From: a virus
Taxonomy: Duplodnaviria; Caudoviricetes
Direction: 5' to 3' (one strand)
IMG/VR virus record: IMGVR_UViG_2924263452_000001
Span: 32,001 to 96,000 of that record
DNA length: 64,000 bases
Made by a program: the position numbers and the translations under genes. Below, piece after piece: positions 45,928 to 61,927 of the stretch (position 1 is its first letter; each line of letters begins with the position of its first letter). The notes beneath the pieces are model-generated. The model searched no databases. It saw only the letters and a program-made list of their open reading frames with translations, and was not told where the DNA came from.

Positions 45928-45928
45928 T

Positions 45929-46507: not shown

Positions 46508-46525
46508 GTTACTTTATCTCCTTCC

Positions 46526-47179
46526 TTATTTATATCTTTTTGCCATATCTGGAATACTGCTATCATGTGTTCCTTCTCCGATGGCTTTAAACTGCCACTC
46601 GTTGTTTTCATCACGATATAATTCACCAACAATAAGTGCTGTACATCTGTTATAATCATCTGTAAGATTGTAGCGACAGATTTCTTCTTTGGTTGCATCA
46701 TCTACGATTCTTGTATAACAGTTTTTAATCATTCCGAAATGCTGCCCTCTTACCCTGCAGTTATAAATATTCACGGCTACAACTAACTTTTTAATATCTT
46801 CTGGCATTTTCTTCAGATCAATTGCAATCTGTTCATCATCATTCCTTTTACCTGTTCCACCAACAAGGTTGTCGCCTCTGTGCTTAATGCAACCACTGTC
46901 ATGTGTAAGGTTTCCATAATAAACAATATCATCAGATCTTGTCAGACCACATTCTGCAACTTCTTCTGTTTTTGTTTTTGAGAAAAGCCCGAACAGCCCA
47001 GATGTTATTTTCTTTGAGATTTGTTTTGTGGATTCACGAAGTACGAACACAGAAGAATCACAATCAATACTGTTTCCATTCTGTGCCATATCCCATCCAA
47101 GTCCTACAGTTACATTTGCCAGTTTCTCTACTGCTTTTGAAAGATTTACTTTTTGTCCTTTTGTTAAACTTACCGCCAT
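46526..47179 (-). CDS. TerD family protein
   Basis: VGLGWD, GDNLVG, DDEQI, WQFKAIGEG. Confidence 0.88.
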   Translation of the reverse strand: MAVSLTKGQKVNLSKAVEKLANVTVGLGWDMAQNGNSIDCDSSVFVLRESTKQISKKITSGLFGLFSKTKTEEVAECGLTRSDDIVYYGNLTHDSGCIKHRGDNLVGGTGKRNDDEQIAIDLKKMPEDIKKLVVAVNIYNCRVRGQHFGMIKNCYTRIVDDATKEEICRYNLTDDYNRCTALIVGELYRDENNEWQFKAIGEGTHDSSIPDMAKRYK

Positions 47180-47196
47180 TCTTTATTTCCTCCTAC

Positions 47197-47763
47197 TTAA
47201 ACCCCGAAGCTATTGCAAAGTGCCTGTAAACCGCCAGAATATCCCTGTCCGATTGCATTGAACTTCCATTCTCCATTGTGGCGGTACAGTTCGCCAAGAA
47301 CCATTGCTGTCTCTGTTGAATAATCTTCTCCAAGGTCATAACGAATCATTTCTTCATTTGTTTCTTTATTCACCATTCTAATATGAGAGTTTGAAACCAT
47401 ACCGAAGTTCTGTAATCTTTCTTCTGCCATATAGATAGTTACAGTAAATGCAACTTTTTCAATATCATCAGGAATTTTTGTCAGATCAACGATAATCTGC
47501 TCATCATCTCCATTGCCTGAACCAGTGAGATTATCTCCCATATGCTGAACTGCGCCACTTGGATGCTTTTTATTGTTAAAGTATATAAAGTCTTTATCAC
47601 TCTTTACTTTTCCATTTGCACCGAGAAGAAATGCTGATGCATCCAGGTCAAAATCATCACCGTCATACTTATTTGCATCCCATCCAAGACCGACGATAAT
47701 TTGCTTTAATCCTTCATTTCCTTTTGTAAGATCCACTTTCTGTCCTTTTACTAAACTTACCAT
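47197..47763 (-). CDS. terD: TerD family protein
   Basis: [29 protein letters not shown]. Confidence 0.9.
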
Positions 47764-47781
47764 TTTATTTCTCCTTATTAT

Positions 47782-47970
47782 TTATTTTGTTTTACAGGAG
47801 CGGCTTTTTCGCCACTCCCTATTTATTAAATAAAACGAAATCGGATATGCCATAATGGTCAAAAAGATAAATGGTAAAAATTTTATTAGGCATGTTAAGA
47901 TTAATCCAGTCGCATAACAAATCAATGTAATATTCTCAACTCTCTTATGCTCTTTATCTCTTTTAACCAT
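47782..47970 (-). CDS. Small membrane protein
   Basis: Two hydrophobic stretches. Confidence 0.45.
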   Translation of the reverse strand: MVKRDKEHKRVENITLICYATGLILTCLIKFLPFIFLTIMAYPISFYLINREWRKSRSCKTK

Positions 47971-47978
47971 ATGATTTC

Positions 47979-50603
47979 CTACTTTCTTCTAGTGATTGCT
48001 TTTCTCACAAGATCAATCGGAATAATTAAGAATGCCAGGGCTACCGTTACACCCCACTGTGTAAGTGTCATTGCTGTACATCCCATAATTTCCCCACCAA
48101 ACTGTGCAAGTAAAAATGTAATGACAAAAATCGCAATTGCTATCTCTACAAAAAGTTTGTTCTTGCCGATTCCTTTAAACAGGTTAAATCCATCTGTTCT
48201 GATATTGAAACCGTTGAATGTTGCCATCATCACAAGTAATGCAAATCTCGCTGTTGCATAAACTTCTTCGTTATTTCCAAATATATTCTGTATAGCTGGC
48301 AATAATGTGAGTCCAAAAATTCCTATAAATGCCATAACTGATACCGCAATCTGACTAACAGTTTCTTTTGATAACAGTTTTGATCCTTTTGGAATAGGCT
48401 TTTCTTTCATATACTCTTCTTTTGCTGGTTCTCCACCAAAGGAAAGAGAATTAAGAGAATCCATAACGATGTTAATTACAAGAATCTGCACTGCTGCAAC
48501 TGCTTCTACAGCCATAATAATCGGATATAAAATACTGAGAATTACCAGACCTACATTGATAGGTAACTGGAATTTCAGGAACTTCATAACATTGTGCATG
48601 AATGTTCTTCCAAGAAGAACTGCATCCGTAATTGACACAAAATTATCATCTGTAATAATAATGTCCCCGGCTTCTTTGCATACATCTGTTCCAGATCCCA
48701 TTGAAAAGCCAACGTCCGCAGCTTTTAAAGCTGGTGCATCGTTTGTGCCATCACCAGTCATACCAACACAAAGTCCAAGTTCCTGTGCCAGTCGCACAAT
48801 TCTCAGCTTTGTATTCGGTGTAGCTCTTGCGATAACCTTGATATGTGGCAATTTTTCTTTTGCTTCTTCGTCGGATAATGCATCAAAATCAATAGCTGAC
48901 ATCGCAATATCTGTGTCATCTTTGATAAGCCCGGCATCTTTCGAAATAGCTTTTGCTGTGTCAATGACATCGCCAGTTACCATCATAACCTGAACACCTG
49001 CATCATGCATTCTTTCAACTGCTTCTGGTACTTCTGGACGTACATCATCACGAATAGCAACCAATGAAGTAATGATAAGATCATCAGGTAAACCATTTTC
49101 CGGCAATGCTGATCTACTATAGCCTGTTGCAATTACTCGCATTGCTTTTACCGTGTATGATTTTACAATATCTTTTAATTTATTTCTTTCAACTGTATGT
49201 GTGCCATTTTCATCTTCATATGAAACGGCTACATCAATCAAACGCTCTGGTGCGCCTTTATAGTATGTGATTTTTCCGTCTTTTCCATCAGTTTCAACTG
49301 CACTGAATTTATTTGCACTGTTAAAGCTCTTTGCATTCGTTACCTTTACAGAATCAGTGATTGTTTTATATTCATCACTATCAATCATAGTAAGTAATGC
49401 TCTTTCTGTTGCATTTCCACCTACAATGTTTTTATTCTCGTCATACATAGCACTGCTATTTAACGCTACATTCAACTTGAATAAGCTATCCACCATTGTT
49501 CCACTTGTAACTTTTTCTCTATTACACATTACATTTTCAACTGGAACAAGTTTTCCGACTGTAAGTGTTCCTGTCTTATCAGTACAAAGCAACTGAATAT
49601 TTCCCGCTTCCGGAATTTTATTCGTATGTTTTGCCAGGACATTGTGCTTAATCATAATCTTCGCATTCTGTGCTGTTATAAGATTAATGATAAGTGGTAA
49701 ACCTTCCGGCACTGCTGCAACAATAATGGTAAGTGCGGTTACTGCAATAGTAAGAATATTCTTCAGAACTCCAATCCAACCAATTCCAAAATATTCTGCA
49801 ACGCCACCATATTGAATGATGTTTGTGATGATTAACGCTACTACAATAATTGAAGCTCCAATATACCCGAATTTGCTAATCTGTTTAGCAAGATCCTCTA
49901 ACTGGATTTCCAACGATGTTTTTGTTTCTTCAATTTCATCAATAGTTGAGATTGTTTGACCGTTTACCGTATTAACTCCAACATTGGTTACAATCATTTT
50001 TCCCTCACCGTCAACCACTGTTGTTCCGGAGAATAATGCATAATAATTTACATAATCATCTGAATTTGCTTTTCTTTTTCCACCGATTTCGATATGTGGA
50101 TTTCCTTTATTCCAGGCACTTTTTTTACATGGCTCAGATTCTCCATTTAAAACAGAATTATCTACTTTTAAATTTCCTTCAACAAGATATCCGTCTGCAT
50201 AAATAGCCTCACCTGATTGAACAATAACCAAATCTCCAACAACAAGATCATCCGTGTTAATATGTTCTATCTTTCCATCCCTAACCACATTGCAATAATG
50301 AACCGATGTCCTATCCCTTAATTCTTTCTCACTTTTCTGGCTTTTTAATCCTATATTCATTCCAAGAAGCGCAATAGCAAGTAATACTACTGCAACGCCA
50401 ATCGGTTCTGAATAAGAACCCTGTCCAAACACTGCAATAACTGTGAACACAATCATCATGGCTAAAAGAATCTGGTTTATGTGATCCTTAAATGTTTCCA
50501 TGAAGAACTGCAGTCCAGTTTTCATTTTTTTCTCTGGTAACTTGTTTGTCCCAAATTTTTCTCGGTTTTCAACCACCTGTCTACTTGTTAGTCCTTTTTC
50601 CAT
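47979..50603 (-). CDS. P-type II (Ca2+-type) cation-transporting ATPase
   Basis: NGES, PEGLP, DKTGTLT, KGAPE, GDGTNDAPAL. Confidence 0.92.
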   Translation of the reverse strand: MEKGLTSRQVVENREKFGTNKLPEKKMKTGLQFFMETFKDHINQILLAMMIVFTVIAVFGQGSYSEPIGVAVVLLAIALLGMNIGLKSQKSEKELRDRTSVHYCNVVRDGKIEHINTDDLVVGDLVIVQSGEAIYADGYLVEGNLKVDNSVLNGESEPCKKSAWNKGNPHIEIGGKRKANSDDYVNYYALFSGTTVVDGEGKMIVTNVGVNTVNGQTISTIDEIEETKTSLEIQLEDLAKQISKFGYIGASIIVVALIITNIIQYGGVAEYFGIGWIGVLKNILTIAVTALTIIVAAVPEGLPLIINLITAQNAKIMIKHNVLAKHTNKIPEAGNIQLLCTDKTGTLTVGKLVPVENVMCNREKVTSGTMVDSLFKLNVALNSSAMYDENKNIVGGNATERALLTMIDSDEYKTITDSVKVTNAKSFNSANKFSAVETDGKDGKITYYKGAPERLIDVAVSYEDENGTHTVERNKLKDIVKSYTVKAMRVIATGYSRSALPENGLPDDLIITSLVAIRDDVRPEVPEAVERMHDAGVQVMMVTGDVIDTAKAISKDAGLIKDDTDIAMSAIDFDALSDEEAKEKLPHIKVIARATPNTKLRIVRLAQELGLCVGMTGDGTNDAPALKAADVGFSMGSGTDVCKEAGDIIITDDNFVSITDAVLLGRTFMHNVMKFLKFQLPINVGLVILSILYPIIMAVEAVAAVQILVINIVMDSLNSLSFGGEPAKEEYMKEKPIPKGSKLLSKETVSQIAVSVMAFIGIFGLTLLPAIQNIFGNNEEVYATARFALLVMMATFNGFNIRTDGFNLFKGIGKNKLFVEIAIAIFVITFLLAQFGGEIMGCTAMTLTQWGVTVALAFLIIPIDLVRKAITRRK

Positions 50604-50917
50604 CCTGTTTCCTTTCTTTTATTTTGTTTATCTTTATCTATATCAACAGTACAGGTTTTTATACCTGTACTGGAAATAACAACAACACACTCTCTAAGTA
50701 TGTGTTCTTTTATAGGAAATGTACACGAAATATCAATATGCCATTTATCATAAATAACATACCAGTTGAATTTTACATTCCACCACTTTATTGATAATAT
50801 ATATGTTCCTGATTGAAAATAATTTCCTGAACTTCCAAACGGTTCAAAAAATCTAAAATAATCTCTCCCATATATAAAACCAAATACAATTATTAAACAA
50901 ATTATTATTTTTACCAC
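50588..50917 (-). CDS. Hypothetical membrane protein
   Basis: N-terminal hydrophobic segment. Confidence 0.45.
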   Translation of the reverse strand: MVKIIICLIIVFGFIYGRDYFRFFEPFGSSGNYFQSGTYILSIKWWNVKFNWYVIYDKWHIDISCTFPIKEHILRECVVVISSTGIKTCTVDIDKDKQNKRKETGWKKD

Positions 50918-50924
50918 CTTCTAT

Positions 50925-50953
50925 ATAATATCACCATTTCTTTTGTATGTCAA
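50925..50953 (-). promoter_or_regulatory. SigA-type promoter of the ATPase-TerD operon
   Basis: TTGACA-17bp-TATTAT with extended -10 TG. Confidence 0.7.
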
Positions 50954-50977
50954 CTATTATTTCTTTTATCTTATTGA

Positions 50978-51646
50978 TTATTTTTTATACCTGGTATCTT
51001 TTTTGTCTCTTGATTTTAAAATAACGCTGCGATATTTCTCATAGCTTTTTATGGACACATATTTTCCATTTATTACGTCGAAGCACTGTTCCCCTCTTGC
51101 CATTTCATATGCATTTGCTGTAATTACAATGTATACTTCCTTATCCTTATGAATATCCAGAATCAATTTAAAAAGTTCATCTTTCAATTCAACAACATTG
51201 TCAATACTAAACCCACTGTCTACTGCATCAGCAAAAATCCAATATTCGTTGTCATTCGGATTATTTCGGAACATTGATCCAATCATTTTCGCAAAGTTCC
51301 CCATATTTAATGCTATGTTCTCTCCCTCACTGGAACACATACTCGTTGCAAGAAATGTAATATCTCCGTAAAATTCGGCTTTGCTTCTTGCATTGCTGCC
51401 ATCATTCTTTAGATTGTCAAACATTACACACGGGATATTTTCTTTTTGTACAATTCCGTATAACTGTTTCAATAGTGTTGACTTACCAGCACCATTGCAA
51501 CCAACCAAAACCGTAACACCAGGAACAAGTTCTATCGTGGCTTTATTATACATTTTGATACCTTCACCATAGGCATCATTATCAATTTTGAATTTCCGTC
51601 CCATAGTTTTTCTACTCTCCATAAACTTGTACTGTACCATCAGCAT
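50978..51646 (-). CDS. ABC-class ATPase (start probably MGRKF)
   Basis: GCNGAGKST, SEGE signature, FADAVDSG. Confidence 0.7.
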   Translation of the reverse strand: MLMVQYKFMESRKTMGRKFKIDNDAYGEGIKMYNKATIELVPGVTVLVGCNGAGKSTLLKQLYGIVQKENIPCVMFDNLKNDGSNARSKAEFYGDITFLATSMCSSEGENIALNMGNFAKMIGSMFRNNPNDNEYWIFADAVDSGFSIDNVVELKDELFKLILDIHKDKEVYIVITANAYEMARGEQCFDVINGKYVSIKSYEKYRSVILKSRDKKDTRYKK

Positions 51647-51914
51647 TATATAATGGTGTTATACCAAATTTATAACCAGATTTGGCGATAAAATATTTCA
51701 CTTTGGTATCTTTCGCATACACAATCCTATAAATTGCTCCTGAATCATCCCACTCTGTTATAAGTGTAAAATAGTTTCCACAAAGGCTATACTCTGTATT
51801 ATCCTTTTGCCCAGTTACTTCTTGATATGTTTTTCCACATGCCGTACATGTAGTACATAGAATGAATATAATAGCTGCAAAACAAGCAACTTTGTTAATA
51901 ATTTTCTTTCTCAT
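51612..51914 (-). CDS. Small lipoprotein
   Basis: CTAC lipobox; YAKDTKVKY...GITPLYNADG. Confidence 0.6.
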   Translation of the reverse strand: MRKKIINKVACFAAIIFILCTTCTACGKTYQEVTGQKDNTEYSLCGNYFTLITEWDDSGAIYRIVYAKDTKVKYFIAKSGYKFGITPLYNADGTVQVYGE

Positions 51915-52220
51915 TTATTTACCTCTACTTTTTATTGGTGTTCTTACCAGTGGCGAAGCTGTTGTATAATCACCATTCTCTTTTATGAGAGTCAACTGGC
52001 ATCCACCCATTACTTCATAAGTAATTCCCTTTTTGTTATCAAGAAAAGCAAGTGCTTCATCTGCATCTTTAAAAACTTCCGGATAAATAGTTCCGTATGG
52101 ATATGAAACCCACTGGTATATATCATGTCCATCAAAATGTCCACTGCCACTTCCACATAACATAAATGTGTTCACATGTTTTCCGGATTCAGCAGAAAAT
52201 ATTTTTACAATTCGTTTCAT
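51915..52220 (-). CDS. Hypothetical protein
   Basis: Operon context. Confidence 0.5.
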   Translation of the reverse strand: MKRIVKIFSAESGKHVNTFMLCGSGSGHFDGHDIYQWVSYPYGTIYPEVFKDADEALAFLDNKKGITYEVMGGCQLTLIKENGDYTTASPLVRTPIKSRGK

Positions 52221-52239
52221 GTTTATTTAATTCGCCTTT

Positions 52240-52473
52240 CTAAAATAAATTTCCTTGACTGTCTACCAGTCCTTCATATCCGCACCATTTACATCTGCAA
52301 TGCAATGACGCTCCATCAAAACCAGTTGTTTCATAATCTTTCATGTGACAATGCCAGCCTCTCTTGCAATAAATCTTTTGTAACGGTTTTACATGATTTG
52401 CTATGGCATATCCAATCCCGTCAAGAATAATAAGTGACATTAAAATTACACCTACAAATAAACCAATACTCAC
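52240..52473 (-). CDS. Small membrane protein with Cys/His motif
   Basis: TM segment and C..GWH...CKWC. Confidence 0.5.
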   Translation of the reverse strand: MSIGLFVGVILMSLIILDGIGYAIANHVKPLQKIYCKRGWHCHMKDYETTGFDGASLHCRCKWCGYEGLVDSQGNLF

Positions 52474-52475
52474 AA

Positions 52476-52922
52476 TTACGCCAACCTCCTCTCTAAGATT
52501 TGATTTACCAATTTTCCATCTGCTTTACCCTTAACCTGTGGCATGAGAACTTTCATGATCTTTCCTTTTTCTTTTTTGGTTGGACTATCTAATTCCAGAT
52601 CCTTCAGTACATCAGAAATAACCTTTTCAATTTCTGCTTCATTCATCATCTGCGGCGCGAATTGCTGCAGAACTGCCAGGCGGTTATTACACTGTTGAAT
52701 AATGTCCGTTCTGTCTGCCGGTGTCATTTCCAGTGTTTCTTTTGTCTGTTTGATCTCTTTCTGTACTACTGCATCCTCTTCTTCTGGTGATAAAACTCGC
52801 ATTTTATCAATTTCTGCATTCTTCAAAGCCGCCAAGAGTAGAGCCAATGTATCTTTCTTCTCCTTATCTTTTTCTTTCATGGATTTAACCATTTCGTTTC
52901 TTACTAATTCCTGTTTACTCAT
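52476..52922 (-). CDS. yqeY: GatB/YqeY domain protein
   Basis: MKEKDK...LKNAEID...GKIMK..KGKADGKLV. Confidence 0.85.
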   Translation of the reverse strand: MSKQELVRNEMVKSMKEKDKEKKDTLALLLAALKNAEIDKMRVLSPEEEDAVVQKEIKQTKETLEMTPADRTDIIQQCNNRLAVLQQFAPQMMNEAEIEKVISDVLKDLELDSPTKKEKGKIMKVLMPQVKGKADGKLVNQILERRLA

Positions 52923-52952: not shown

Positions 52953-55655
52953 TTATGCCATTTGTAATTTAGGTATTCTATCAACATCTCTGTTTGAAAA
53001 CACTTCTATAAAATTCCCTTTTATATTAATACAACGTTCCCCAAGCTTTCCAATATGTTCAATATCACTAAGCTTACGAAACCTATTTTTCCCAATCCTT
53101 ACTGTATATTTATAATAAATTTTGCTTAAATTAGCACAGGTCATATTCTCTTGTTTTAAAATATCCTGATATATCTCATTTGGAACTACTGCCACATTTA
53201 TTTTTTTATATTCAATATTTCGTACACATTTATTTTCTTTTAACAATTCTCCACTTTCACAATAACTATATATATGAACTTCATCATTGAGTGGATTTAT
53301 TGTACCTATGCTCGCCTTATACCCATCAATGTCATTTTGAGCTATTAAATTGACACTGATATTATCCCACACATTATTCATATAATCTGCATTTTTGTAT
53401 GGTATTTTTAACTGACCATTATTTCTATCAAGTAGATTATATGTGTTTTCCAATAAGCTTTCGTCATATATTTTATAAGAAAATGATTCCGGAACTGTAA
53501 CATACAAATAAACATCTTCATTATTAGAATGCTCTCTTATAGTTCCCAAGTCGTCGTGTCTACGTAATCTTCCGATAAACTGTATTAAACTTCCAATCGG
53601 ACACAAACTGGAAATCCCATAGTCAAAATCAATATCAAGCGACTGCTCTATTATAGAAGTTGCAATCACTATACATCTTTTTCCTCTATGCTCTCTATTC
53701 TTTCCGAATTTCTTCAAAAGTTGCTGCGAAATACTGTCCTTTTGTTCTTGTGTCATTTCACTATGAAATTTTATAATTTCTGCATCTGGTATTTTATCAA
53801 TCAACAAATCATATAATTCATCAACCTCTCTTATTAAATTCCTTTTTATACATATACACGAACCATTGCCAATTAAACTTTTGGCTAATTCAACGATTTT
53901 ATCATAATCATTGTCAATATGCCTCTGTTCATATAATGTAATTCTCTTATTTCCTTCTTCAAATACTTTTTCCTGAATAAGTTTTCCTTCTCTGTCTATG
54001 ATTGAAATTAACGGATATGCAGTTGATATTTCGTTGTACTCACCATATACTCCCAGTAGTTCTTTCTTCATTCTTACTGGTAATGTTGCAGATAACATAA
54101 CAACTCTAATCCCAAATATCTTGCACATCTCTAAAAATCTTTTTATTACTTCTAACTGAAAATAATCTATGTCGTGAATTTCATCTATAATAACCGTTTT
54201 GTTTAGCAATCCCATAAATTCCAAACCATAATACGGAATCTTTCTCACAGACATTAAAATTTGATCTATTGTTCCCACTACATAAGGGTACATCAATTTA
54301 AGTCTTTCATCTGAAAGAATATACGATCTATCTAACACGTTATCCTCGTTGAAGTACGAAGTTCCAGTATATAATAATGCTTTTTCATTTATATTGCACT
54401 CTTTAAGAATGTCCCTAACTCTCCCCAACAATCCTTGCGCTGTACAAGTTGTTGGAGTGGCAAAATAAACACCGCCAGGGGATCTTGATAGTGCAGCATA
54501 TATAGCCGCCTCTGTTTTTCCTCCACCACAAGCATCCTCAATAAGAATCAGCGAATAATCGTTTCTATCACAATATCCGCAAATAACATTCTGAATATTA
54601 TTGGGACACTTAAATTTCCCAAAAATATTATGATATAATGAGTCTTTTTGTTCATAAGACATTGAAAAGTTGCTTATATACTGTTCCTTACATCTCTCAG
54701 ATATATTATCATATAAATATTTCATATATTCAGAATCTTCTTTAAAATCAAGACTCGTTTTTAATCCAATCGTCATTTGCCCTGAAGCCAACCAATCAGC
54801 AAAAACAACTATACTTGTTATTATTAAAGAAACTAGATCAATAATCTCATTTCCGTCTACATCACTGTATAATTTCATATTTGTATTTTCTCCATTATGA
54901 TACGGAAATAGTTTACAAATATATTTATACATACTTTTAATATCGTCCGGGATTTCGCAACAACTCAAAAAATCTCGCGTTTCTGATCTTCCCACTTTAT
55001 TTTGATGGTGGCACGAAATAATCTTTTTGGCAATCCCTATATTATATCTATCTAAAATCCCATCCTTTTTTAAGAGCTGCTCCAAAATGATTTCAGAGTA
55101 TACTTCATGCCGGAATTTTTTACAATCTCTTTCTGTTGGATTTTTCCAAAATTCATCGTGCATTTTTCCTATATCATGAATCGCCGCTAAAAAGATGACA
55201 AATCTTTTTACATCGTTTGTATCTGACTCCGTTAATTCAGATATTCTTTTAATAGTATTCCTGAATATTGTATTACACAAATATTTTGCTATTACACCAG
55301 ATTCTATTAAATGAATGTGTAAATATTTATCTGGTTTTGCATAATAGTTCATCCAGTTCGTTATTTCTTTTTCGTAATTTTTTGTAATCAAATTTATTCC
55401 TTCAAAATCATTAAGTTTATATCTTGTTTCTCTAATTGTCTTTATAGAGAATTTTTGCTCTGCTTTATCACTGTAAATAAGTGTGGCAGAAATTTCTATA
55501 TTTTCTTTAGATTCGTTTTCTAGCATATTCCATATGTATTCTCTTGTATTCGCAGGACAAGTTGACAAAAATACATATGGCTTTATTTCATAACAAAATC
55601 TAGTTAATTCACCTCTGATTTTATCTGGAATATTTTCACATATAATCAAAAACAT
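52953..55655 (-). CDS. cas3: Cas2 (type I-E)-Cas3 fusion: Cas2 + HD nuclease + SF2 helicase
   Basis: aa 1-90 ENIPDKIRGELTRF..EIKPYVF...REYIW...DFEGINLI match I-E Cas2; HDIGK, RHE, CHH, ADWLAS; GGGKTEAA, DEIH, LSAT, EQSLDIDFD, GRLRRH. Confidence 0.88.
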   Translation of the reverse strand: MFLIICENIPDKIRGELTRFCYEIKPYVFLSTCPANTREYIWNMLENESKENIEISATLIYSDKAEQKFSIKTIRETRYKLNDFEGINLITKNYEKEITNWMNYYAKPDKYLHIHLIESGVIAKYLCNTIFRNTIKRISELTESDTNDVKRFVIFLAAIHDIGKMHDEFWKNPTERDCKKFRHEVYSEIILEQLLKKDGILDRYNIGIAKKIISCHHQNKVGRSETRDFLSCCEIPDDIKSMYKYICKLFPYHNGENTNMKLYSDVDGNEIIDLVSLIITSIVVFADWLASGQMTIGLKTSLDFKEDSEYMKYLYDNISERCKEQYISNFSMSYEQKDSLYHNIFGKFKCPNNIQNVICGYCDRNDYSLILIEDACGGGKTEAAIYAALSRSPGGVYFATPTTCTAQGLLGRVRDILKECNINEKALLYTGTSYFNEDNVLDRSYILSDERLKLMYPYVVGTIDQILMSVRKIPYYGLEFMGLLNKTVIIDEIHDIDYFQLEVIKRFLEMCKIFGIRVVMLSATLPVRMKKELLGVYGEYNEISTAYPLISIIDREGKLIQEKVFEEGNKRITLYEQRHIDNDYDKIVELAKSLIGNGSCICIKRNLIREVDELYDLLIDKIPDAEIIKFHSEMTQEQKDSISQQLLKKFGKNREHRGKRCIVIATSIIEQSLDIDFDYGISSLCPIGSLIQFIGRLRRHDDLGTIREHSNNEDVYLYVTVPESFSYKIYDESLLENTYNLLDRNNGQLKIPYKNADYMNNVWDNISVNLIAQNDIDGYKASIGTINPLNDEVHIYSYCESGELLKENKCVRNIEYKKINVAVVPNEIYQDILKQENMTCANLSKIYYKYTVRIGKNRFRKLSDIEHIGKLGERCINIKGNFIEVFSNRDVDRIPKLQMA

Positions 55656-55678
55656 TTTACATTTTCCTTAACCTAAAA

Positions 55679-56937
55679 TATAATACCTTCTCTATATAAG
55701 AAGAAATACAGACGGGTTTTCCACTACCATTTGCATTTTTAGAACCACCTTCTCATGCAGAGAAGAAACCTTACAAAAGGATATGCTCAGTGTTACAATA
55801 CAGGAATTACCTTCTCATATAGAGAAGAAGCATCGAACATATGTATCTATGTGACAAACACGAAGAATTACCTTCTCGTATAGAGAAGAAACTTCTGTTT
55901 ATCTGTATTTATGCTCGAACATTTAGAATAACCTTCTCATGTAGAGAAGAAACATCGGTGCTGCCAATCAAGAGCAATCAACCGCTCAGAATAACCTTCT
56001 CATATAGAGAAGAAATTGAAATCCCCATTTCGAGGCAACAAATAGATTTAGAGTTACCTTCTCATATAGAGAAGAAATAAAGAAGCTATAAAAAAGCCAA
56101 GCGAGGACACAGAGTTACCTTCTCATATAGAGAAGAAATTTTTGATATGGATTCCGGCAGCAGTCGCGCCATAGAGTTACCTTCTCATATAGAGAAGAAG
56201 CCCTGACAAGTCCTTATGATACGATACACTATGAGAATTACCTTCTCATACAGAGAAGAAATGTCTGCACAACTGCATCGTGATCTGACTCTTTAGAATT
56301 ACCTTCTCATATAGAGAAGAAATTAAAAGCTTACTTTCCCACTTCTTTCTGCGGTGAGAACTACCTTCTCATATAGAGAAGAAACAGAGGGATAATTGGA
56401 GGATCAGATTCTTTTTCGGAATTACCTTCTCATATAGAGAAGAAACACAAAAACTTGCGGGCTATCTCTTGATGCGTGGGGAATGACCTTCTCATGTAGA
56501 GAAGAAACTGTGCCACGCACCGGAAGCTCTCCATATTCAAGAATCACCTTCTCATATAGAGAAGAAACAGCGGCTAGCACTGTAAGAAATGGCTTGTCTT
56601 TAGAACTACCTTCTCATATAGAGAAGAAACCGGCAATATTCACCTTTATGGCACACCTGCAAGAGAATAACCTTCTCATGTAAAGAAGAAACGTACTCAG
56701 ATTTTCTTGAAAGTTCTCTCCTGGAGAATAACCTTCTCATGTAGAGAAGAAACTTGATCCATTTGAGATCTTTTCCCTCGCAATTAGAATAACCTTCTCA
56801 TATAGAGAAGAAACTGATAAGAATTTTTATGTCTATTGATTGCCTCAGAATAACCTTCTCATGTAGAGAAGAAACATGTTCCGCGGTTGCAAATGCTGAT
56901 CTGATCTGAGAATAACCTTCTCATGTAGAGAAGAAAC
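55679..56937 (-). CRISPR. Type I-E CRISPR array, 21 repeats (one degenerate) and 20 spacers of 31-34 nt
   Basis: 29-nt repeat GTTTCTTCTCTACATGAGAAGGTTATTCT (minus strand): CTTCTC/GAGAAG stem and 8-nt handle; period 60-63 nt. Confidence 0.97.
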
Positions 56938-56945
56938 TCCATAGT

Positions 56946-57545
56946 TTATAAGATTACAAACGGTAACATAAGCCCACTTCCATATGATTTTTGCTGCCCG
57001 ATTCCATTTTTGCAAGCTTCAATGAATTTGTCACGATCATCTATTCTTACACGTAAAATGAATGTCGATATTCCTAATTCTCTGCTCTTCACACCGTCCT
57101 TTGCAATATAGCACGATGTTTGGATTTCTTTATAAATTTTTTTCACCGTTGCACCGGATTCCAACATCTTTCTTATAACCCAATTTTCTTTTTCATATGA
57201 ATCAGTAATGAGCATTTTTCTACTACTATTTTTTTCTTTTGACTTTATAACGTCAGTTTTTACTGGGTTCACATGAATCTCAATATCAATTTCGTCATCT
57301 TCTATACATTCATCATAATTGATTTCTTCAGAATGAACCACAGAAAATCCTGTACATGCTTCAACATTTGGTTTATTTATAGACTGTAGAAAAATCACCT
57401 GATCTTTTTCATCGTTATAAAATAACACGCCTTCTTCTTTTCTATTTGATTTAAACATCCGCATAATTGTCTTATGCATCTTATCAAAATCATGCAACTC
57501 CATTCGCATTTTTTTTATGTCATATTTTAAAATATATAAATACAT
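56946..57545 (-). CDS. cas6e: Cas6e (Cse3); start MYLY at 57545
   Basis: MYL...H..IM, LQS, NPVK, G-rich loop GIGQQKSYGSGL. Confidence 0.88.
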   Translation of the reverse strand: MYLYILKYDIKKMRMELHDFDKMHKTIMRMFKSNRKEEGVLFYNDEKDQVIFLQSINKPNVEACTGFSVVHSEEINYDECIEDDEIDIEIHVNPVKTDVIKSKEKNSSRKMLITDSYEKENWVIRKMLESGATVKKIYKEIQTSCYIAKDGVKSRELGISTFILRVRIDDRDKFIEACKNGIGQQKSYGSGLMLPFVIL

Positions 57546-57550
57546 AGCAT

Positions 57551-58090
57551 CTAACCTCTGCAATTCCTATACGAACACCTTTTTGTTATTTTGTACATCT
57601 TACTTACATCAACTCTTTCTACTCCTTTGAAAACATTCCCTGCCGGATATTCCTTTCGACCAAGGTATAAATCTCTCTTCGGATGTTCAAGACAATAACC
57701 AATTCCTTTTGTAATATAATCATCATAAAGTCTAAAATACAAAACGAATTTCTTATCTACTATGGCTTCTTTTCTTACGATAGAAAGCCCTTTAGGATCT
57801 ATTTTCCCATTTCCACACATATGCTTATCCATGTTCGATTTATGAAAATCTTCCATGATTGAACATGCTCCACTCATATCTGACTGTTCTGTATCTAAAT
57901 ATAGTTCAATATTATCTTCGATATAATCAATAAGTGGATTTTTATAAGTTAGATTTAGTGCGTTTTCAATTAATCCTCCAACTCCTGATAAGGTTGGTAT
58001 GTATGATGTTCTTTTAAATATAGGTGTACTTGCAGTACCCCACGATTGAAGTGGGGCAGCAAATACTAATTTTCCGTATAACTTTTCCAT
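57551..58090 (-). CDS. cas5e: Cas5e (CasD), compact
   Basis: APLQSWG...RT..PTLSGVGGL...LYLGRK. Confidence 0.88.
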   Translation of the reverse strand: MEKLYGKLVFAAPLQSWGTASTPIFKRTSYIPTLSGVGGLIENALNLTYKNPLIDYIEDNIELYLDTEQSDMSGACSIMEDFHKSNMDKHMCGNGKIDPKGLSIVRKEAIVDKKFVLYFRLYDDYITKGIGYCLEHPKRDLYLGRKEYPAGNVFKGVERVDVSKMYKITKRCSYRNCRG

Positions 58091-59370
58091 TAGATATTTT
58101 CCTTTACAAAATCCATAATATCTTTTTCCTTATATGTCACACTTACATTTTCATCCGTAAGTCCAAATTCTTCTTTTCTAGCAAAATATGAAGGACGTAA
58201 AAACAGCTTTTTCTTCTCTTCTTTTATCCCCTCATTGTTTTTAATAATAGCAGAATCAATAAATGTGTTTAAAGCATCAATCGAATCTTTGGCTGGAATA
58301 CGAAAATCCACATCATATGCATCTCTTCTTTGACCAAATGTAACATACATTAATATAGGTTCTGATTCTGAAAAGTATGAATTTCGTCCTCCTGTTGGAT
58401 GTGACCAATAGATAGCTTCCATGTAAATGCCGATAATTAAACGTGCTATTTCTCTCGCTTCTTCTCTTGTTTCTATTCCATTGTATCTCATTTCATTTTC
58501 GATCATCTGATTTATGTCAATACAGTATTCTTCCAGTAAAAGTGGTGAACTAATATCTATATCAAATAAGTTTGCTGCACCAGGATTCTTATACGGATCG
58601 TATTTGTTTCCAAAAACAGTTTCTCTTCTTGACTGATAACTAGAATTGTATGCCTCTTCAATTACACTAAAAGCACAAGCAACGGAAACAGAGCTATTAA
58701 TTGTTTTAATGAAGCATGTGCTCATTCTTCCAAGTAAACAAAGTAAATGTCCGCAGCTATGTAATTTCCCAATTCTTAAAATAACTTCGTTTTTAAATTT
58801 AGTCTGAAGCTCTTTATCCGAAAAATCATCTACCGTTTTGAAAAATTCAATAAATGTATCTGCAATACATTTAATCTCATTTACAGAATATTTATTACTT
58901 TCTTTTGTTGTAATTGAAATACTTTCACTGCTTGATTTTTTTGGTTTCTTGTTACATTTACTATCACTCTTATCATTTCCATCTTTAAAAATATTTTTCA
59001 AAATCAATAAAATTCTATCTTCCTCATCATCACTTAACTCTACACCAGTTTCCTTTTTGAAATAACCTCTAAGATATTCGGCTAAAATAAGTTCACCAAT
59101 TCTTCTTGTATCTCTTCCAATATCTAATCCCTTATATAGCTGCTTAATATATTCTTTCTGTCCATTCTTGATCGCCGCACTACTGCAAAACGTTCTGTCA
59201 ACTCCATTGTAAGTAATAGTTTTAATATTACCAACGCCATCGCAATTTAAACGGGCAGCTTTGTATGATCTTAATACATGTACATTGATAATATTATTTT
59301 CATTGTCATTCATTCTTCTTTCAATAATTTCTTTAATGCATTCAATTTCTGTCATTTTTCTTTCCTCCAC
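58090..59370 (-). CDS. cas7e: Cas7e (Cse4)
   Basis: HVLRSY...LNCDGVGNIKT..YNGVDR..SS..IK; LLGRM; PTGGRNS. Confidence 0.85.
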   Translation of the reverse strand: MEERKMTEIECIKEIIERRMNDNENNIINVHVLRSYKAARLNCDGVGNIKTITYNGVDRTFCSSAAIKNGQKEYIKQLYKGLDIGRDTRRIGELILAEYLRGYFKKETGVELSDDEEDRILLILKNIFKDGNDKSDSKCNKKPKKSSSESISITTKESNKYSVNEIKCIADTFIEFFKTVDDFSDKELQTKFKNEVILRIGKLHSCGHLLCLLGRMSTCFIKTINSSVSVACAFSVIEEAYNSSYQSRRETVFGNKYDPYKNPGAANLFDIDISSPLLLEEYCIDINQMIENEMRYNGIETREEAREIARLIIGIYMEAIYWSHPTGGRNSYFSESEPILMYVTFGQRRDAYDVDFRIPAKDSIDALNTFIDSAIIKNNEGIKEEKKKLFLRPSYFARKEEFGLTDENVSVTYKEKDIMDFVKENI

Positions 59371-61489
59371 TTGATAAATATTTTATTAATTTTTTCCCTG
59401 AATATTCCCAATTGCAAGCAAGCATATATAAATCATACATGTCACAACCATTTTCTTTTGATAATGATTTTATTAACCTCTGACATATCCTCTTTGCTGT
59501 ATGATTAAATTCCTTCTGTGTTACAAATGTTTCTATATTGCTTTTTGCTGATCCTGAAATTTCTGATGAATAGTAGTTTCTTTTTAATATATCACCTATT
59601 TTACTTGCCCCTGCTCCAATTGGATCTCTCATATTTAAAGCTAAAGAAACTACAAAAAGCAAATTTCCATCAAACTTCTTGATTTCAGGAAAACTTGTAT
59701 AATACGCAAGCAACTGTTCTCCACTAAGCTCATCTTCCGAATCTACATTTATTGCTTTTTTCAAATCTCTTCTTCTTTTAGAATTTTCTCTTTTAGTAAG
59801 AAGATTAAGTCCTTTATAAAACTCTTCTCTGCTTAACATATACACTCCCCGCACATTGTAAACCGTATTATCCGGAATATCATTTGCACCATATTCTTTA
59901 TATAAATATGCGAAAAATTTATTCTTTCTTCGTTCACATTCGATTCCTATAAACCTATCGCCATACTTTTTAAATATTTTTATGGCTTCGGTTGTTACCC
60001 ATTTAATCGCATTGTCTTTGTCGCCACTATTTATAATATCCATTAAGTTCTTATTTATAAAAAGTGCAGTTTCACATTGATACATGAAATTGTTTAATGC
60101 TGACTCTGCGATAACTGATCCTTTTGCTTTTCGGTTCTCTCCAAAACGTCTAATAGTGTCTATATCTTTAATTGCTTTGTAAATCTCTTTTGCAATCGCT
60201 GCTATGTCATCACAAACTAATCGCAATAGTTTTACATTTACATTTTTATTTATTTGATACTCCAAGTTAATCATTTCTCTAACCTGACTGGTGTTTATTA
60301 TATCAAACCCAACCAACTTAATAGAAAAATCGTCTGGGAGAAATTCGATATTATCTCTAGCACTATTTAATCCGCTTATACCCATACCAGAAGCGATAGA
60401 GTTTCCTGATGACGGTATAAGAGCGTACATTTTCAAAAATGGCTTGTTATCTATTCCAGATCCTTCTAAGTCAATACAATTGCAAGCTTTCAGTTGCTTC
60501 CCATTCACTTTATAAACATTTGGATCGCGAACCTTCCATATTTTTGAGATCTTTTCTCTTTGTCCCGCATTTATTGATGGTTTTTTAAAATAAATGCTTC
60601 TTATAACCCCATTTTCATAGTCAACATTTCCGTATCTTATAAAATTATACGGTGTCATATAACAATTCATAAATTTTATTTCGTGCAAGCCATTCTTATC
60701 ATTTTTGTCGCGGTCAATTTCTGAATATATTTTCAGCATATCCGAATACTGTTTTCTTCTATAAAATGGTACTCCTGAATAGTCAATATCCTTCGACGAA
60801 ATATTTAGAAGTAATGTTTCAAAAACATTATTCGCTTTTATAATGCCAATCATAACAGTATTACCTAATAATGTAGAAGCCCATCCAAGTCCATTCGCTC
60901 CAGAATAAAACATTCTGAGACACAATATATACAAATATTCTTGGAATGTCACACTTGCAAATTTTATATAACTGTTTTCCTTTGAATACACAAAGCCGTT
61001 TCGTGTGGTATCTTCCTTGTAATAATTTTCATATGCTTCTACATCCATATACCCGTAAAACATATCATTTGTTTCTTTTTTACAGGTTGGAACAATAAAA
61101 CCAATTGGTCTTTCTTTTGCTTCAATTTCTCCGGCTGCATACTGTGCGAATGCTTTTTTCTCACCAAGCAGCTCAAATGACGTTCCTTCTTTTCTGCAGT
61201 TGTCAAAATATTCTCTAATAATATCCATATCAAATCTGCCTTTTTTAAGAAGATCATATATATCACTTTTTCTTTCAGTTGATCGCGGTTTATAGATGTC
61301 ACACAAGAACAAATCTAACAATCGAATAATTCCAACTGCAGTCATATCAACTCCCAGAACTGGCAATATTTCTTTGTATTCATGAGCATTTTCAAAAAGT
61401 TCAAGAACAGATACATTTATATCATTTCCACTCTTATCTTTAACTCTGATGCATTTACTTTCTAAAATATCGTATGTTGTATTCATCAA
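59342..61489 (-). CDS. cas8e: Cas8e-Cas11 (Cse1-Cse2) fusion with an internal start at 59839
   Basis: N-terminus YDILESKCIRV..G..VSVLELFENAHEY..I...RLL is Cse1-like; the last 165 aa are helical and Cse2-like, preceded by GGGGAG-5nt-ATG. Confidence 0.75.
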   Translation of the reverse strand: MMNTTYDILESKCIRVKDKSGNDINVSVLELFENAHEYKEILPVLGVDMTAVGIIRLLDLFLCDIYKPRSTERKSDIYDLLKKGRFDMDIIREYFDNCRKEGTSFELLGEKKAFAQYAAGEIEAKERPIGFIVPTCKKETNDMFYGYMDVEAYENYYKEDTTRNGFVYSKENSYIKFASVTFQEYLYILCLRMFYSGANGLGWASTLLGNTVMIGIIKANNVFETLLLNISSKDIDYSGVPFYRRKQYSDMLKIYSEIDRDKNDKNGLHEIKFMNCYMTPYNFIRYGNVDYENGVIRSIYFKKPSINAGQREKISKIWKVRDPNVYKVNGKQLKACNCIDLEGSGIDNKPFLKMYALIPSSGNSIASGMGISGLNSARDNIEFLPDDFSIKLVGFDIINTSQVREMINLEYQINKNVNVKLLRLVCDDIAAIAKEIYKAIKDIDTIRRFGENRKAKGSVIAESALNNFMYQCETALFINKNLMDIINSGDKDNAIKWVTTEAIKIFKKYGDRFIGIECERRKNKFFAYLYKEYGANDIPDNTVYNVRGVYMLSREEFYKGLNLLTKRENSKRRRDLKKAINVDSEDELSGEQLLAYYTSFPEIKKFDGNLLFVVSLALNMRDPIGAGASKIGDILKRNYYSSEISGSAKSNIETFVTQKEFNHTAKRICQRLIKSLSKENGCDMYDLYMLACNWEYSGKKLIKYLSSGGKKNDRN

Positions 61490-61507
61490 TTTCCTTTCTA
61501 TTATATT

Positions 61508-61927
61508 TTATATTTTCCCTATAGTTAAAATTCCTTCGTCTAACAACTGATTTATATATTGCAAAAGTGTTTCCTGAGTTTCCAAATCTTTTTCTGTTTC
61601 AATTTCTTGATAATCGAAAAACTTTTTAAAATTGTTTTTACCCATACCGCCCCAACAAGTACAATAACAATGAACTTCGTGGCGATAATACGGCTTATCA
61701 TAAATTCCAATCCATACAGAATTGTCAGTACAATACTTTCTATCTGCATCTGTTCCAATGCTTTTTGAAATACACCAGGCATTTATCACATCATTTCGCC
61801 AGAACAACGGCTCTTTGATTTTAGAGCAATCATTTACAATCAGTTTATTTATGTCTGAAGGTTTCAAGTTATATTTATTCTCGACTTTTGGTTTTCTCAT
61901 ATTGCAGCCTCCTAGAATGATAACCAC
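61508..61927 (-). CDS. Hypothetical protein (start probably MRKPKV)
   Basis: AGGAGG RBS before the internal ATG. Confidence 0.55.
   Translation of the reverse strand: MVIILGGCNMRKPKVENKYNLKPSDINKLIVNDCSKIKEPLFWRNDVINAWCISKSIGTDADRKYCTDNSVWIGIYDKPYYRHEVHCYCTCWGGMGKNNFKKFFDYQEIETEKDLETQETLLQYINQLLDEGILTIGKI

What the first reader, a model, noticed from the sequence alone, without database searches (positions are those of the whole stretch)
52953..61489. Phage-borne type I-E variant: Cas2e-Cas3 fusion and no Cas1
Seen: the order is cas8e/11, cas7, cas5, cas6, array, cas2-3, flanked on both sides by unrelated phage genes, with no cas1 in the locus. The first ~90 aa of Cas3 match the I-E Cas2 family. 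HD and helicase motifs look intact, though motif VI reads QFIGR. Established: the Cas2-Cas3 fusion is the hallmark of I-F, while I-E Cas2 is free or fused to DnaQ. Inference: this is an independent fusion that may recruit a host Cas1 for primed acquisition.
Basis: partly seen in the sequence, partly recalled or inferred. Interest (0 to 1): 0.85.

Follow-up and report, generated by a model that had tools for sequence, protein, structure and literature searches.

The report
Phage type I-E CRISPR, Cas2-Cas3 fused
A large gut phage carries a DNA-cutting type I-E CRISPR system in which Cas2 is fused to Cas3 and cas1, the gene that captures new spacers, is missing; the fusion is inherited from a wider, apparently undescribed branch of type I-E, and the phage's spacer array has still changed at its leading end.

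Summary
On the minus strand lie cas8e (with a Cas11-like tail), cas7e, cas5e, cas6e, a 21-repeat array and a 900-aa Cas2e-Cas3 fusion. No cas1 was found in the 127-kb phage record or in 16.5 kb beyond its end.

The N-terminal domain is Cas2e by Pfam, by NCBIfam and by fold (best match E. coli Cas2). Five further assemblies show the locus without cas1, so it is not an artefact.

The fusion is independent of type I-F, but it did not arise in this phage.
- A Cas3 tree places it in one strongly supported type I-E sub-clade.
- At least 36 protein clusters at 50% identity carry the fusion, including cultured Lachnospiraceae bacterium NK4A144.
- Members usually keep cas1 next to cas2-3. One relative has exactly this locus plus cas1.
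- cas1 was lost repeatedly on mobile elements, including a complete 467-kb phage. Two lineages later lost the Cas2 domain too.

Sibling phages share trailer spacers but differ at the cas6-proximal end, so spacers were gained after cas1 was lost. That fits a Cas1 supplied in trans, but this is unproven; no host, target or Cas1 source was found. The scan noted the same kind on other genomes (e1-5482144, e1-5482156).

The parts
61500..61528 (-). Promoter-like site (TTAACT-17-TATAAT) just upstream of cas8e; candidate operon promoter
   Evidence: Consensus scan, 10 of 12 matches. Pattern match only.
59342..61489 (-). cas8e-like large subunit, 715 aa, with a Cas11-like C-terminal domain in the same frame
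   Evidence: Pfam CRISPR_Cse1 E 3.3e-8 over residues 10-231. It aligns with relatives' Cas8 up to about residue 555 and then has ~160 extra residues. Contigs of runs X1-X3 cover it without gaps.
59345..59839 (-). Cas11 (Cse2)-like domain, residues 551-715 of Cas8; an in-frame ATG at 59839 is preceded by GGGGAG, so a free small subunit may also be translated
   Evidence: hhalign against six relatives' Cas11: probability 74%, E 2.8e-5, 137 columns. Internal ATG and Shine-Dalgarno-like motif read from the DNA. Internal initiation is an inference.
58090..59370 (-). cas7e (Cse4/CasC), 426 aa
   Evidence: Pfam Cas_CT1975 E 5e-19; NCBIfam casC_Cse4 E 1.2e-14, below its cut-off.
57551..58090 (-). cas5e (CasD), 179 aa
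   Evidence: Pfam Cas_Cas5d E 2.2e-11; NCBIfam casD_Cas5e E 7e-11.
56946..57563 (-). cas6e (Cse3/CasE), 205 aa; its 3' end doubles as the leader side of the array
   Evidence: Pfam CRISPR_assoc E 1.4e-21; NCBIfam casE_Cse3 51.3 bits, above the 45.2 cut-off. The first repeat starts 9 nt after its stop.
55680..56937 (-). CRISPR array: 21 repeats (29 nt, consensus GTTTCTTCTCTAYATGAGAAGGTWATTCY, polymorphic in loop and handle; the last one, next to cas2-3, is degenerate) and 20 spacers of 32-35 nt
   Evidence: The period of 61-62 nt and the 4 + stem-loop + 8-nt-handle geometry fit a type I-E repeat read on the minus strand.
52953..55655 (-). cas2e-cas3 fusion gene, 900 aa
55389..55655 (-). Cas2e domain (residues 1-89)
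   Evidence: Pfam PF09707 E 1e-17, full length; TIGR01873 above cut-off; model matches E. coli Cas2.
54777..55322 (-). Cas3 HD nuclease domain (residues 112-293); H115, H160, D161, H216, H217 and D287 conserved
   Evidence: Pfam Cas3_HD E 2e-15; invariant columns in the clade alignment.
53427..54593 (-). Cas3 SF2 helicase core (residues ~355-743); motifs I GGGKTEA, II DEIH, III SAT, VI QFIGRLRRH
   Evidence: TIGR01587 cas3_core E 2.7e-47; alignment A1.

Best explanation
This is a phage-borne, interference-competent type I-E CRISPR-Cas locus. It belongs to a distinct I-E sub-lineage in which Cas2e was fused long ago to the N-terminus of Cas3.

In that lineage cas1 normally sits beside cas2-3. 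By analogy with I-F Cas1-Cas2/3, the fusion probably ties spacer capture to the Cas3 nuclease-helicase. That analogy is an inference.

The SPbeta-like gut phage lineage studied here lost cas1. What remains is cas8e(+cas11)-cas7-cas5-cas6-array-cas2/3, probably read as one operon. Cas6e would cut the crRNAs, Cascade would find DNA targets, and the intact HD-helicase would degrade them.

Shown here:
- the domain identities;
- intact catalytic motifs;
- membership of the fused clade;
- absence of cas1 in 127 kb plus 16.5 kb, and in the locus in six assemblies;
- arrays of sibling phages that share trailer spacers but differ at the cas6-proximal end.

Inferred (about 45%): new spacers are still integrated by a Cas1 supplied in trans, from a host or a co-resident element. 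The retained Cas2 domain may serve as its docking partner.
For: Domains.

Catalytic residues.

Conservation of the fusion:
- 12 fused rows form, with 5 unfused rows, one clade with SH-aLRT 100. The basal members are fused.
- 36 full-length clusters at 50% identity match from Cas2 through the start of the HD domain. All 8 that were sampled are Cas2e plus Cas3e.

Relatives that have cas1:
- L001 and P0008: cas1 lies after cas2-3.
- L006, Lachnospiraceae bacterium NK4A144: cas1 is flanked by repeats.
- L091: order cas1-cas2/3-cse1.
- L105/L106: cas6-cas1-leader-array-cas2/3, which is the window's layout plus cas1.

cas1 absent. The complete 467-kb phage G001 has the same fusion and no cas1.

Independent assemblies of the same cas1-less locus: L086, L089 and runs X1-X4.

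Array dynamics:
- L089 has two extra spacers at the cas6 end; its spacers 3 and 4 equal the window's 1 and 2.
- The last of the 19 spacers the script compared (the one before the 20th repeat) is shared with L089's last. The 20th spacer and the degenerate 21st repeat lie beyond it and were not compared.
- Leader-side repeats share one variant.

Cas2 domain dN/dS is 0.27-0.36, against 0.06-0.11 for the rest of the protein.
Against: - No protospacer was found for any spacer in INPHARED, PLSDB or IMG/VR (three spacers tried in IMG/VR), nor in the phage itself. Targets and PAM are unknown.
- No host and no donor Cas1 were identified. No array with the same repeat was seen outside this phage.
- Roughly 30 kb of the ~175-kb genome was not seen.
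- One strain (run X3) has an in-frame 174-nt deletion that removes most of the Cas2 domain. The Cas2 domain evolves about three times faster than the rest. Two sister lineages lost it altogether. All this fits a decaying vestige as well.
- The repeats are unusually polymorphic for an actively growing array.
Confidence: 0.75

Rival explanations
1. Interference-only system with a vestigial Cas2 domain. After cas1 was lost the Cas2 domain has no function and is decaying. The arrays differ among siblings because old arrays recombine and lose spacers, or because arrays are swapped with unsampled relatives that still have cas1.
For: - In-frame deletion of Cas2 residues ~17-74 in run X3.
- Cas2 domain dN/dS about three times that of the rest.
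- L089 carries changes at otherwise invariant Cas2 positions.
- The Cas2 domain was lost in the P0015 and P0010-14 lineages, which also lack cas1.
- The Cas2 domain of the complete phage G001 has lost the N-terminal EN..RG motif.
- Shared spacers carry 2-3 mutations, so the arrays are old.
- The repeats are polymorphic.
Against: - dN/dS is still well below 1, although this rests on few changes.
- Two extra spacers sit exactly at the leader end of L089, ahead of spacers identical to the window's first two.
- Leader-side repeats share one variant, as templated duplication of the first repeat would give.
- New spacers must have been integrated by a Cas1 somewhere.
Confidence: 0.3
2. The phage has its own cas1 elsewhere, in the part of the genome missing from this record.
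For: The record is about 75% complete. Sibling scaffolds reach 157-176 kb.
Against: - No Cas1 in 127 kb, nor in 16.5 kb beyond the right end. That stretch holds the SPbeta-like RNA polymerase and the packaging and structural genes, so the missing part is probably the structural block.
- In every relative that has cas1, it lies within 2 kb of cas2-3.
- The complete phage G001 has none.
Confidence: 0.07
3. One reading: the fusion arose in this phage as an independent invention to recruit host Cas1.
For: The fusion is independent of I-F, and the phage lacks cas1.
Against: The fusion is shared by bacterial and mobile-element relatives at 28-34% identity that have their own cas1. It is basal in a clade with SH-aLRT 100.
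Confidence: 0.03
4. Assembly or sequencing artefact that joins a free cas2 to cas3.
For: None found.
Against: The same open frame is present in L086, L089, X1 and X2 (X3 has the frame with an in-frame deletion inside the Cas2 domain), and in at least 36 distant clusters.
Confidence: 0.01

Closest known systems
Canonical type I-E CRISPR-Cas (E. coli K-12; Streptococcus thermophilus CRISPR4)
   Same: Cas8e, Cas11, Cas7e, Cas5e and Cas6e lie in the canonical order. Repeats are 29 nt with 32-33-nt spacers and an 8-nt handle geometry. Cas3 has an HD domain plus an SF2 helicase. Cas2 is of the Cas2e family, and its model superposes on E. coli Cas2.
   Different: Cas2 is fused to the N-terminus of Cas3. 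cas1 is absent. cas3 lies at the 3' end behind the array, not at the 5' end. The array is embedded in the operon, with no free leader. cas11 is in frame with cas8. The proteins are very divergent: most fall below the NCBIfam equivalog cut-offs, and the closest Cas3 outside this phage group is about 34% identical.
Type I-F Cas2/3 (Pseudomonas aeruginosa; Vibrio phage ICP1; PDB 5B7I, 8FLJ, 8K22, 9P11)
   Same: Same domain order, Cas2-linker-HD-helicase. In the wider fused I-E clade cas1 lies directly beside cas2-3, as in I-F, sometimes even in the I-F order cas1-cas2/3-cas8. ICP1 is the precedent for a phage with such a system.
   Different: Both halves belong to I-E families, not I-F (TIGR02562 scores 44 bits against a cut-off of 566; Foldseek to I-F Cas2/3 gives E >= 0.05). 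There are no Csy proteins. ICP1 has cas1 and this phage does not. The fusion is therefore convergent.
Adaptation-less CRISPR-Cas systems of large phages (Al-Shayeb et al. 2020, PMC7162821)
   Same: Phage-encoded, no cas1, catalytic residues of the effector intact. [quoted passage not shown]
   Different: Here a Cas2 domain is retained, fused to the effector nuclease, and the arrays of sibling phages differ at the leader end. The subtype and the Cas2e-Cas3 fusion are not among the cases that the terms searched in that paper turned up.
Cas8 genes that also encode the small subunit by internal translation (types I-B, I-C, I-D; from my own knowledge: McBride et al. 2020, Mol Cell, not checked here)
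   Same: A Cas11-like domain lies in frame at the 3' end of cas8, with an internal ATG preceded by a Shine-Dalgarno-like motif.
   Different: Type I-E normally has a separate cse2 gene, as do this locus's own relatives. Internal initiation was not tested.

Membership tests
Type I-E CRISPR-Cas | Cas8e (Cse1) large subunit | tested here: met
   Pfam PF09481 E 3.3e-8, 33.6 bits against a cut-off of 24.7, N-terminal 230 aa only. Aligns with relatives' Cse1.
Type I-E CRISPR-Cas | Cas11/Cse2 small subunit | tested here: inconclusive
   No Pfam Cse2 hit at E <= 10. hhalign to the relatives' Cas11 gives probability 74%, E 2.8e-5. It is fused in frame to Cas8.
Type I-E CRISPR-Cas | Cas7e, Cas5e and Cas6e in that order | tested here: met
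   PF09344, PF09704 and PF08798 are all above gathering score. casE_Cse3 is above the NCBIfam cut-off; casC and casD are below theirs.
Type I-E CRISPR-Cas | Cas3 with HD nuclease and SF2 helicase of the I-E kind | tested here: met
   PRK09694 is the best full-length model (E 4e-56, but 190 bits against a cut-off of 569). The cas3_core and cas3_HD domain models are above cut-off. It sits inside I-E Cas3s in the tree.
Type I-E CRISPR-Cas | Own adaptation module: cas1e plus free cas2e | tested here: not met
   No Cas1 in the record. Cas2e is present only as a domain of Cas3.
Type I-E CRISPR-Cas | 29-nt repeat with stem-loop and 8-nt 5' handle; spacers of about 32 nt | tested here: met
Cas2e (Cas2 CT1978 family) | Full-length match to the family model above the curated cut-off | tested here: met
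   PF09707: 64.5 bits against 24.7, positions 1-86 of 86. TIGR01873: 36.7 against 33.15.
Cas2e (Cas2 CT1978 family) | Ferredoxin-like Cas2 fold resembling E. coli Cas2 | tested here: met
   Model pLDDT 86.7. Foldseek to 5DQT, 5DS4, 4P6I and 4MAK gives E 3e-8 to 2e-6, TM up to 0.89.
Cas2e (Cas2 CT1978 family) | Forms the Cas1-Cas2 integrase with a Cas1 | not testable with these tools
No cognate Cas1 is known.
Type I-F (Cas2/3 hallmark) | Cas2 fused to the N-terminus of Cas3 | tested here: met
   Same domain order.
Type I-F (Cas2/3 hallmark) | Cas3f family helicase and I-F type Cas2 | tested here: not met
   TIGR02562 scores 44 bits against a cut-off of 566. I-F Cas2/3 structures match only at E >= 0.05.
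Type I-F (Cas2/3 hallmark) | Csy1-4 (Cas8f, Cas5f, Cas7f, Cas6f) effector genes | tested here: not met
   All effector genes match I-E families.
Fused Cas2e-Cas3 sub-clade of type I-E (defined here) | Cas3 falls in the clade with SH-aLRT 100 whose basal members carry the fusion | tested here: met
   a set of 17 rows, 12 fused. The window group is on a long branch (1.82).
Fused Cas2e-Cas3 sub-clade of type I-E (defined here) | cas1 adjacent to cas2-3 | tested here: not met
   Present in L001, P0008, L006, L091 and L105/L106. Absent here and in L005.
Phage-encoded adaptation-less CRISPR systems | Encoded on a phage genome | tested here: met
   IMG/VR virus record. PHROG DNA polymerase and ligase. 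DnaE is closest to phages of Bacillota. SPbeta-like YonO, YonJ, YonG, terminase, YonD and YonB lie next to the record's end.
Phage-encoded adaptation-less CRISPR systems | Lacks Cas1, Cas2 and Cas4 | tested here: not met
   Cas1 is absent, but a Cas2 domain is retained. Cas4 was not searched for (I-E systems lack it).

The most novel reading that the evidence does not exclude
A virus that has no integrase of its own keeps a Cas2 domain welded to its Cas3 nuclease so that it can capture a Cas1 made by its host or by a co-resident element. The hybrid primed-acquisition complex would then write new spacers into the phage's own array, whose leader is the 3' end of cas6. More broadly, the fused Cas2e-Cas3 lineage would be a second, convergent invention of the I-F style Cas1-Cas2/3 machine within type I-E.
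Probability: 0.3. Interest if true: 0.85.

Novelty: new variant of a known kind. Interest (0 to 1): 0.58.

Why it matters
Fusing Cas2 to Cas3 is regarded as the signature of type I-F and underlies its tightly coupled primed adaptation. Here the same architecture evolved separately inside type I-E. It is spread over at least 36 protein clusters at 50% identity, including a cultured rumen bacterium. This gives a natural test of whether the fusion by itself couples interference to spacer capture.

The phage copies add a graded series: cas1 present; cas1 lost with Cas2 kept; both lost. In at least one cas1-less phage lineage the arrays still changed at the leader end. That makes it directly testable whether mobile elements can adapt using someone else's Cas1.

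In six searches of the library available here I found no paper describing an I-E Cas2-Cas3 fusion. The main classification papers are not held, however, so it may already have been noted.

Tried and rejected
- Spacer targets: none found. The whole array against INPHARED phages and PLSDB plasmids gave only chance-level hits. Three spacers, with every sixth base left free, gave nothing in IMG/VR. There is no self-match in the phage outside the array.
- The repeat pattern found no other array in IMG/VR. In the metagenome collection it found only two contigs of the same phage, so there is no candidate host array.
- Records behind L089, L103 and L104 are not held, so a complete sibling genome could not be searched for Cas1. 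I walked 16.5 kb beyond the record's end by protein look-ups instead.
- L053 and L012 first looked fused. They are cas2-array-cas3 and cas1-cas2-cas3 with separate genes.
- Pfam found no Cse2 in the Cas8 tail.
- Makarova et al. 2015 (PMC5426118) is not held.
I redid it from the files.
Full report
**What is there**

The window is bases 32001-96000 of a 127,362-bp IMG/VR virus record, linear, estimated 75% complete. All features lie on the minus strand:
- a 715-aa Cse1-like gene, 61489..59342;
- cas7e, 59370..58090;
- cas5e, 58090..57551;
- cas6e, 57563..56946;
- a CRISPR array, 56937..55680;
- a 900-aa gene, 55655..52953.

The 900-aa protein has these domains:
- residues 1-89: Pfam Cas_Cas2CT1978 end to end (E 1e-17), and above the NCBIfam Cas2e cut-off;
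- residues 112-293: Cas3 HD domain;
- the remainder: a Cas3 helicase core (cas3_core E 2.7e-47).

An AlphaFold model of residues 1-100 (pLDDT 86.7) matches E. coli Cas2 in Cas1-Cas2 complexes best (5DQT, 5DS4, 4P6I, 4MAK; E 3e-8 to 2e-6). The I-F Cas2/3 structures match only at E >= 0.05.

The HD residues and helicase motifs I, II, III and VI are conserved.

Neither the Pfam Cas1 model nor a relative's Cas1 at E <= 10 finds anything in the record.

**Not an artefact**

- Logan contig L086 has the same open frame, 98% identical protein.
- Metagenome contig ADJT01012479.1 (L089) has it too, 97.9%.
- Contigs from pig-gut and bioreactor runs and one run of unrecorded source lie on the locus. X1 and X2 run through the Cas2-Cas3 junction without gaps. 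X3 covers the gene apart from a deletion described below. X4's contigs also cover it, in pieces.

In all of them cas6 is followed directly by array and the array by cas2-3, with no cas1.

**The phage**

- PHROG DNA polymerase III alpha and NAD-dependent ligase are present.
- DnaE is closest to phages of Clostridioides, Bacillus and Thomasclavelia, at 41-45%.
- GC content is 34%.
- Look-ups of exact proteins gave sibling contigs that extend 16.5 kb beyond the record's right end. They carry a YonO-like RNA polymerase, YonJ, YonG, a terminase, YonD and YonB. This is an SPbeta-like phage of Bacillota.
- One sibling scaffold is 175,579 nt.

The missing quarter of the record is therefore probably the packaging and structural block.

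**Where the fusion comes from**

The nearest homologues outside this phage group (28-34% identity) nearly all carry the same PF09707-Cas3 architecture.

In a Cas3 tree of 97 proteins, built with the Cas2 part removed, 12 fused and 5 unfused proteins form one clade with SH-aLRT 100. That clade sits among I-E Cas3s of Bacillota. Its two basal members are fused. The simplest history is one fusion and two later losses of the Cas2 domain.

A search of 1.84 billion cluster representatives with the first 200 residues found 36 full-length proteins (877-1060 aa) matched continuously from Cas2 into the HD domain. All eight that I sampled are Cas2e plus I-E Cas3 by NCBIfam.

The fusion is therefore old and widespread, and convergent with I-F. 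It was not invented by this phage.

**Loci of the fused clade**

- L001 and P0008: cse1-cse2-cas7-cas5-cas6-cas2/3-cas1. P0008 lies on a contig with a relaxase and a resolvase.
- Lachnospiraceae bacterium NK4A144 (L006): cas6-array-cas1-two repeats-cas2/3-array, so cas1 is flanked by direct repeats.
- L091: cas1-cas2/3-cse1.
- L105/L106: cas8-cas11-cas7-cas5-cas6-cas1-140-nt leader-array-cas2/3. This is the window's layout plus cas1.

Lineages without cas1:
- this phage;
- the complete 467-kb phage G001 (direct terminal repeats). It has cas6, a mini-array of about five very divergent repeats, then cas2/3, and no Cas1 anywhere in the genome;
- probably L087 and L090, which show array then cas2/3 with no cas1 downstream.

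Lineages that lost the Cas2 domain as well as cas1:
- P0015, a close relative of the L001 protein;
- P0010 and P0012-14, the sister group of the window's branch.

L012 (Selenomonas) has adjacent but separate cas1, cas2 and cas3. It falls outside the clade.

The phage locus is thus best read as an L105-like or NK4A144-like locus from which cas1 was deleted. Recombination between flanking repeats is an obvious route, but that is an inference.

**Is adaptation still going on?**

I compared four arrays of this phage group: the window, L086, L088 and L089.
- L089 has two extra spacers next to cas6. Its spacers 3 and 4 are identical to the window's 1 and 2.
- The last spacer the script compared in the window (number 19, before the 20th repeat) is shared with L089's last (32 of 34). 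The window's 20th spacer and its degenerate 21st repeat lie beyond and were not compared.
- L088 shares three spacers with the window, in the same order.
- L086 shares one spacer with each of L089 and L088, with about three mutations in each.
- All other spacers differ.
- The degenerate repeat lies at the cas2-3 end. The cas6-side repeats share one handle variant (GGTTATTC), while older ones read GGTAATTC, GGTAGTTC or GGTAACTC.
- The base after the 28-nt core is T or C. This resembles E. coli, where the last repeat base comes from the PAM (from my own knowledge).

This is the usual signature of polarised, templated integration at a leader. Here the leader must be the 3' end of cas6, since only 9 nt separate its stop from the first repeat.

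All six assemblies lack cas1 in the locus, so the gains came after the loss. Some Cas1 must have acted. It could come from a host, from a co-resident element, from the unseen part of the genome, or from relatives whose arrays were acquired by recombination.

**Is the Cas2 domain still used?**

The evidence is mixed.
- Among three strains its dN/dS is 0.27-0.36, against 0.06-0.11 for the rest. The counts are small: 6-8 non-synonymous and 5 synonymous changes.
- The X3 contig has a 176-nt gap with 2 nt in its place. This is a net in-frame loss of 58 codons that removes about residues 17-74 of Cas2. It rests on a single contig.
- G001's Cas2 domain has lost the N-terminal EN...RG motif.
- Lineages without the domain show that Cas3 does not need it.

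I put about 45% on a Cas1 in trans, with or without use of the Cas2 domain, and about 30% on a decaying vestige with array change by recombination.

**Other features**

- The last ~165 residues of Cas8 align with the relatives' separate Cas11 (hhalign probability 74%, E 2.8e-5). An in-frame ATG at 59839 follows GGGGAG by 5 nt, so a free small subunit may be translated internally.
- A promoter-like site precedes cas8.
- No room for a separate promoter is evident between the array and cas2-3, so cas2-3 probably depends on transcription through the array.

**What could not be settled**

- No protospacer was found.
- No host array with this repeat was found.
- A complete sibling genome could not be searched.

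**Comparison with what is known**

Al-Shayeb et al. [quoted passage not shown] Reviews that I could read list Cas2-Cas3 only for I-F and Cas2-DnaQ for I-E. Six searches of the library found no description of an I-E Cas2-Cas3 fusion, but the classification papers themselves are not held.

Earlier notes of this scan describe the same kind on other phage genomes (e1-5482144, e1-5482156). My results were obtained before I read those notes and agree with them on the main point.

**Verdict**

This is a real, divergent, phage-borne type I-E system. It is a new variant of a known kind.

Noticed in passing
window 59345-59839 (-): cas11 is fused in frame to cas8e. An internal ATG at 59839 is preceded by GGGGAG, so the small subunit may be translated separately from within cas8. 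Relatives have a separate cse2 gene.
   Followed up: partly
window 55680-56946 (-): The array sits inside the cas operon, between cas6 and cas2-3. Only 9 nt separate the cas6 stop from the first repeat, and ~24 nt separate the last (degenerate) repeat from the cas2-3 start. The repeats are polymorphic in loop and handle, and several score as terminator-like hairpins.
   Followed up: partly
window 55431-55608 (run X3 contig): One sibling strain has a net 174-nt in-frame deletion that removes about residues 17-74 of the Cas2 domain while the Cas3 part stays in frame. It rests on a single contig at ~8x depth.
   Followed up: no
L005 9600-9890: The complete 467-kb phage has a mini-array of about five repeats between cas6 and cas2/3. 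The stems differ in sequence but stay paired, and the 3' handle GTTTTTCT is kept.
   Followed up: no
L006 8262-13185 (Lachnospiraceae bacterium NK4A144): cas1 is flanked by CRISPR repeats on both sides (an 11-repeat array before it, two repeats after it), and a third array follows cas2/3. Recombination between repeats would delete cas1 cleanly.
   Followed up: partly
L089 7574-10981: The ADJT01012479.1 sibling has frame breaks in cas8 (near residue 476) and cas7 (near residue 150) relative to the window. These may be sequencing errors or real inactivation. Contigs of X1-X3 cover cas8 without gaps (one frame); in cas7, X1, X3 and X4 have replaced or diverged stretches.
   Followed up: no
window 45160-52922 (-): Downstream of cas2-3 lie a YqeY-like gene, a P-type cation ATPase (874 aa), a vWA/TerF-like protein, three TerD genes and a PspA-like gene. 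This is a stress or tellurite-resistance-like block, seen also in sibling L086.
   Followed up: no
L098-L104 (beyond the right end of the record): A YonO-like single-subunit RNA polymerase (PF05183), YonJ, YonG, a terminase, YonD and YonB. The phage is SPbeta-like, and sibling scaffolds reach 175.6 kb.
   Followed up: partly
L012 7370-11175 (Selenomonas ruminantium MAG): cas1, cas2 and cas3 are adjacent in the I-F-like order but are separate genes, and they fall outside the fused clade. This may be a precursor-like arrangement.
   Followed up: no
window spacers, 55710-56909: The 12 spacers measured (7 of the window's, 5 from siblings) are 45-66% GC, well above the phage's 34%. This hints at targets in other, more GC-rich genomes.
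   Followed up: no
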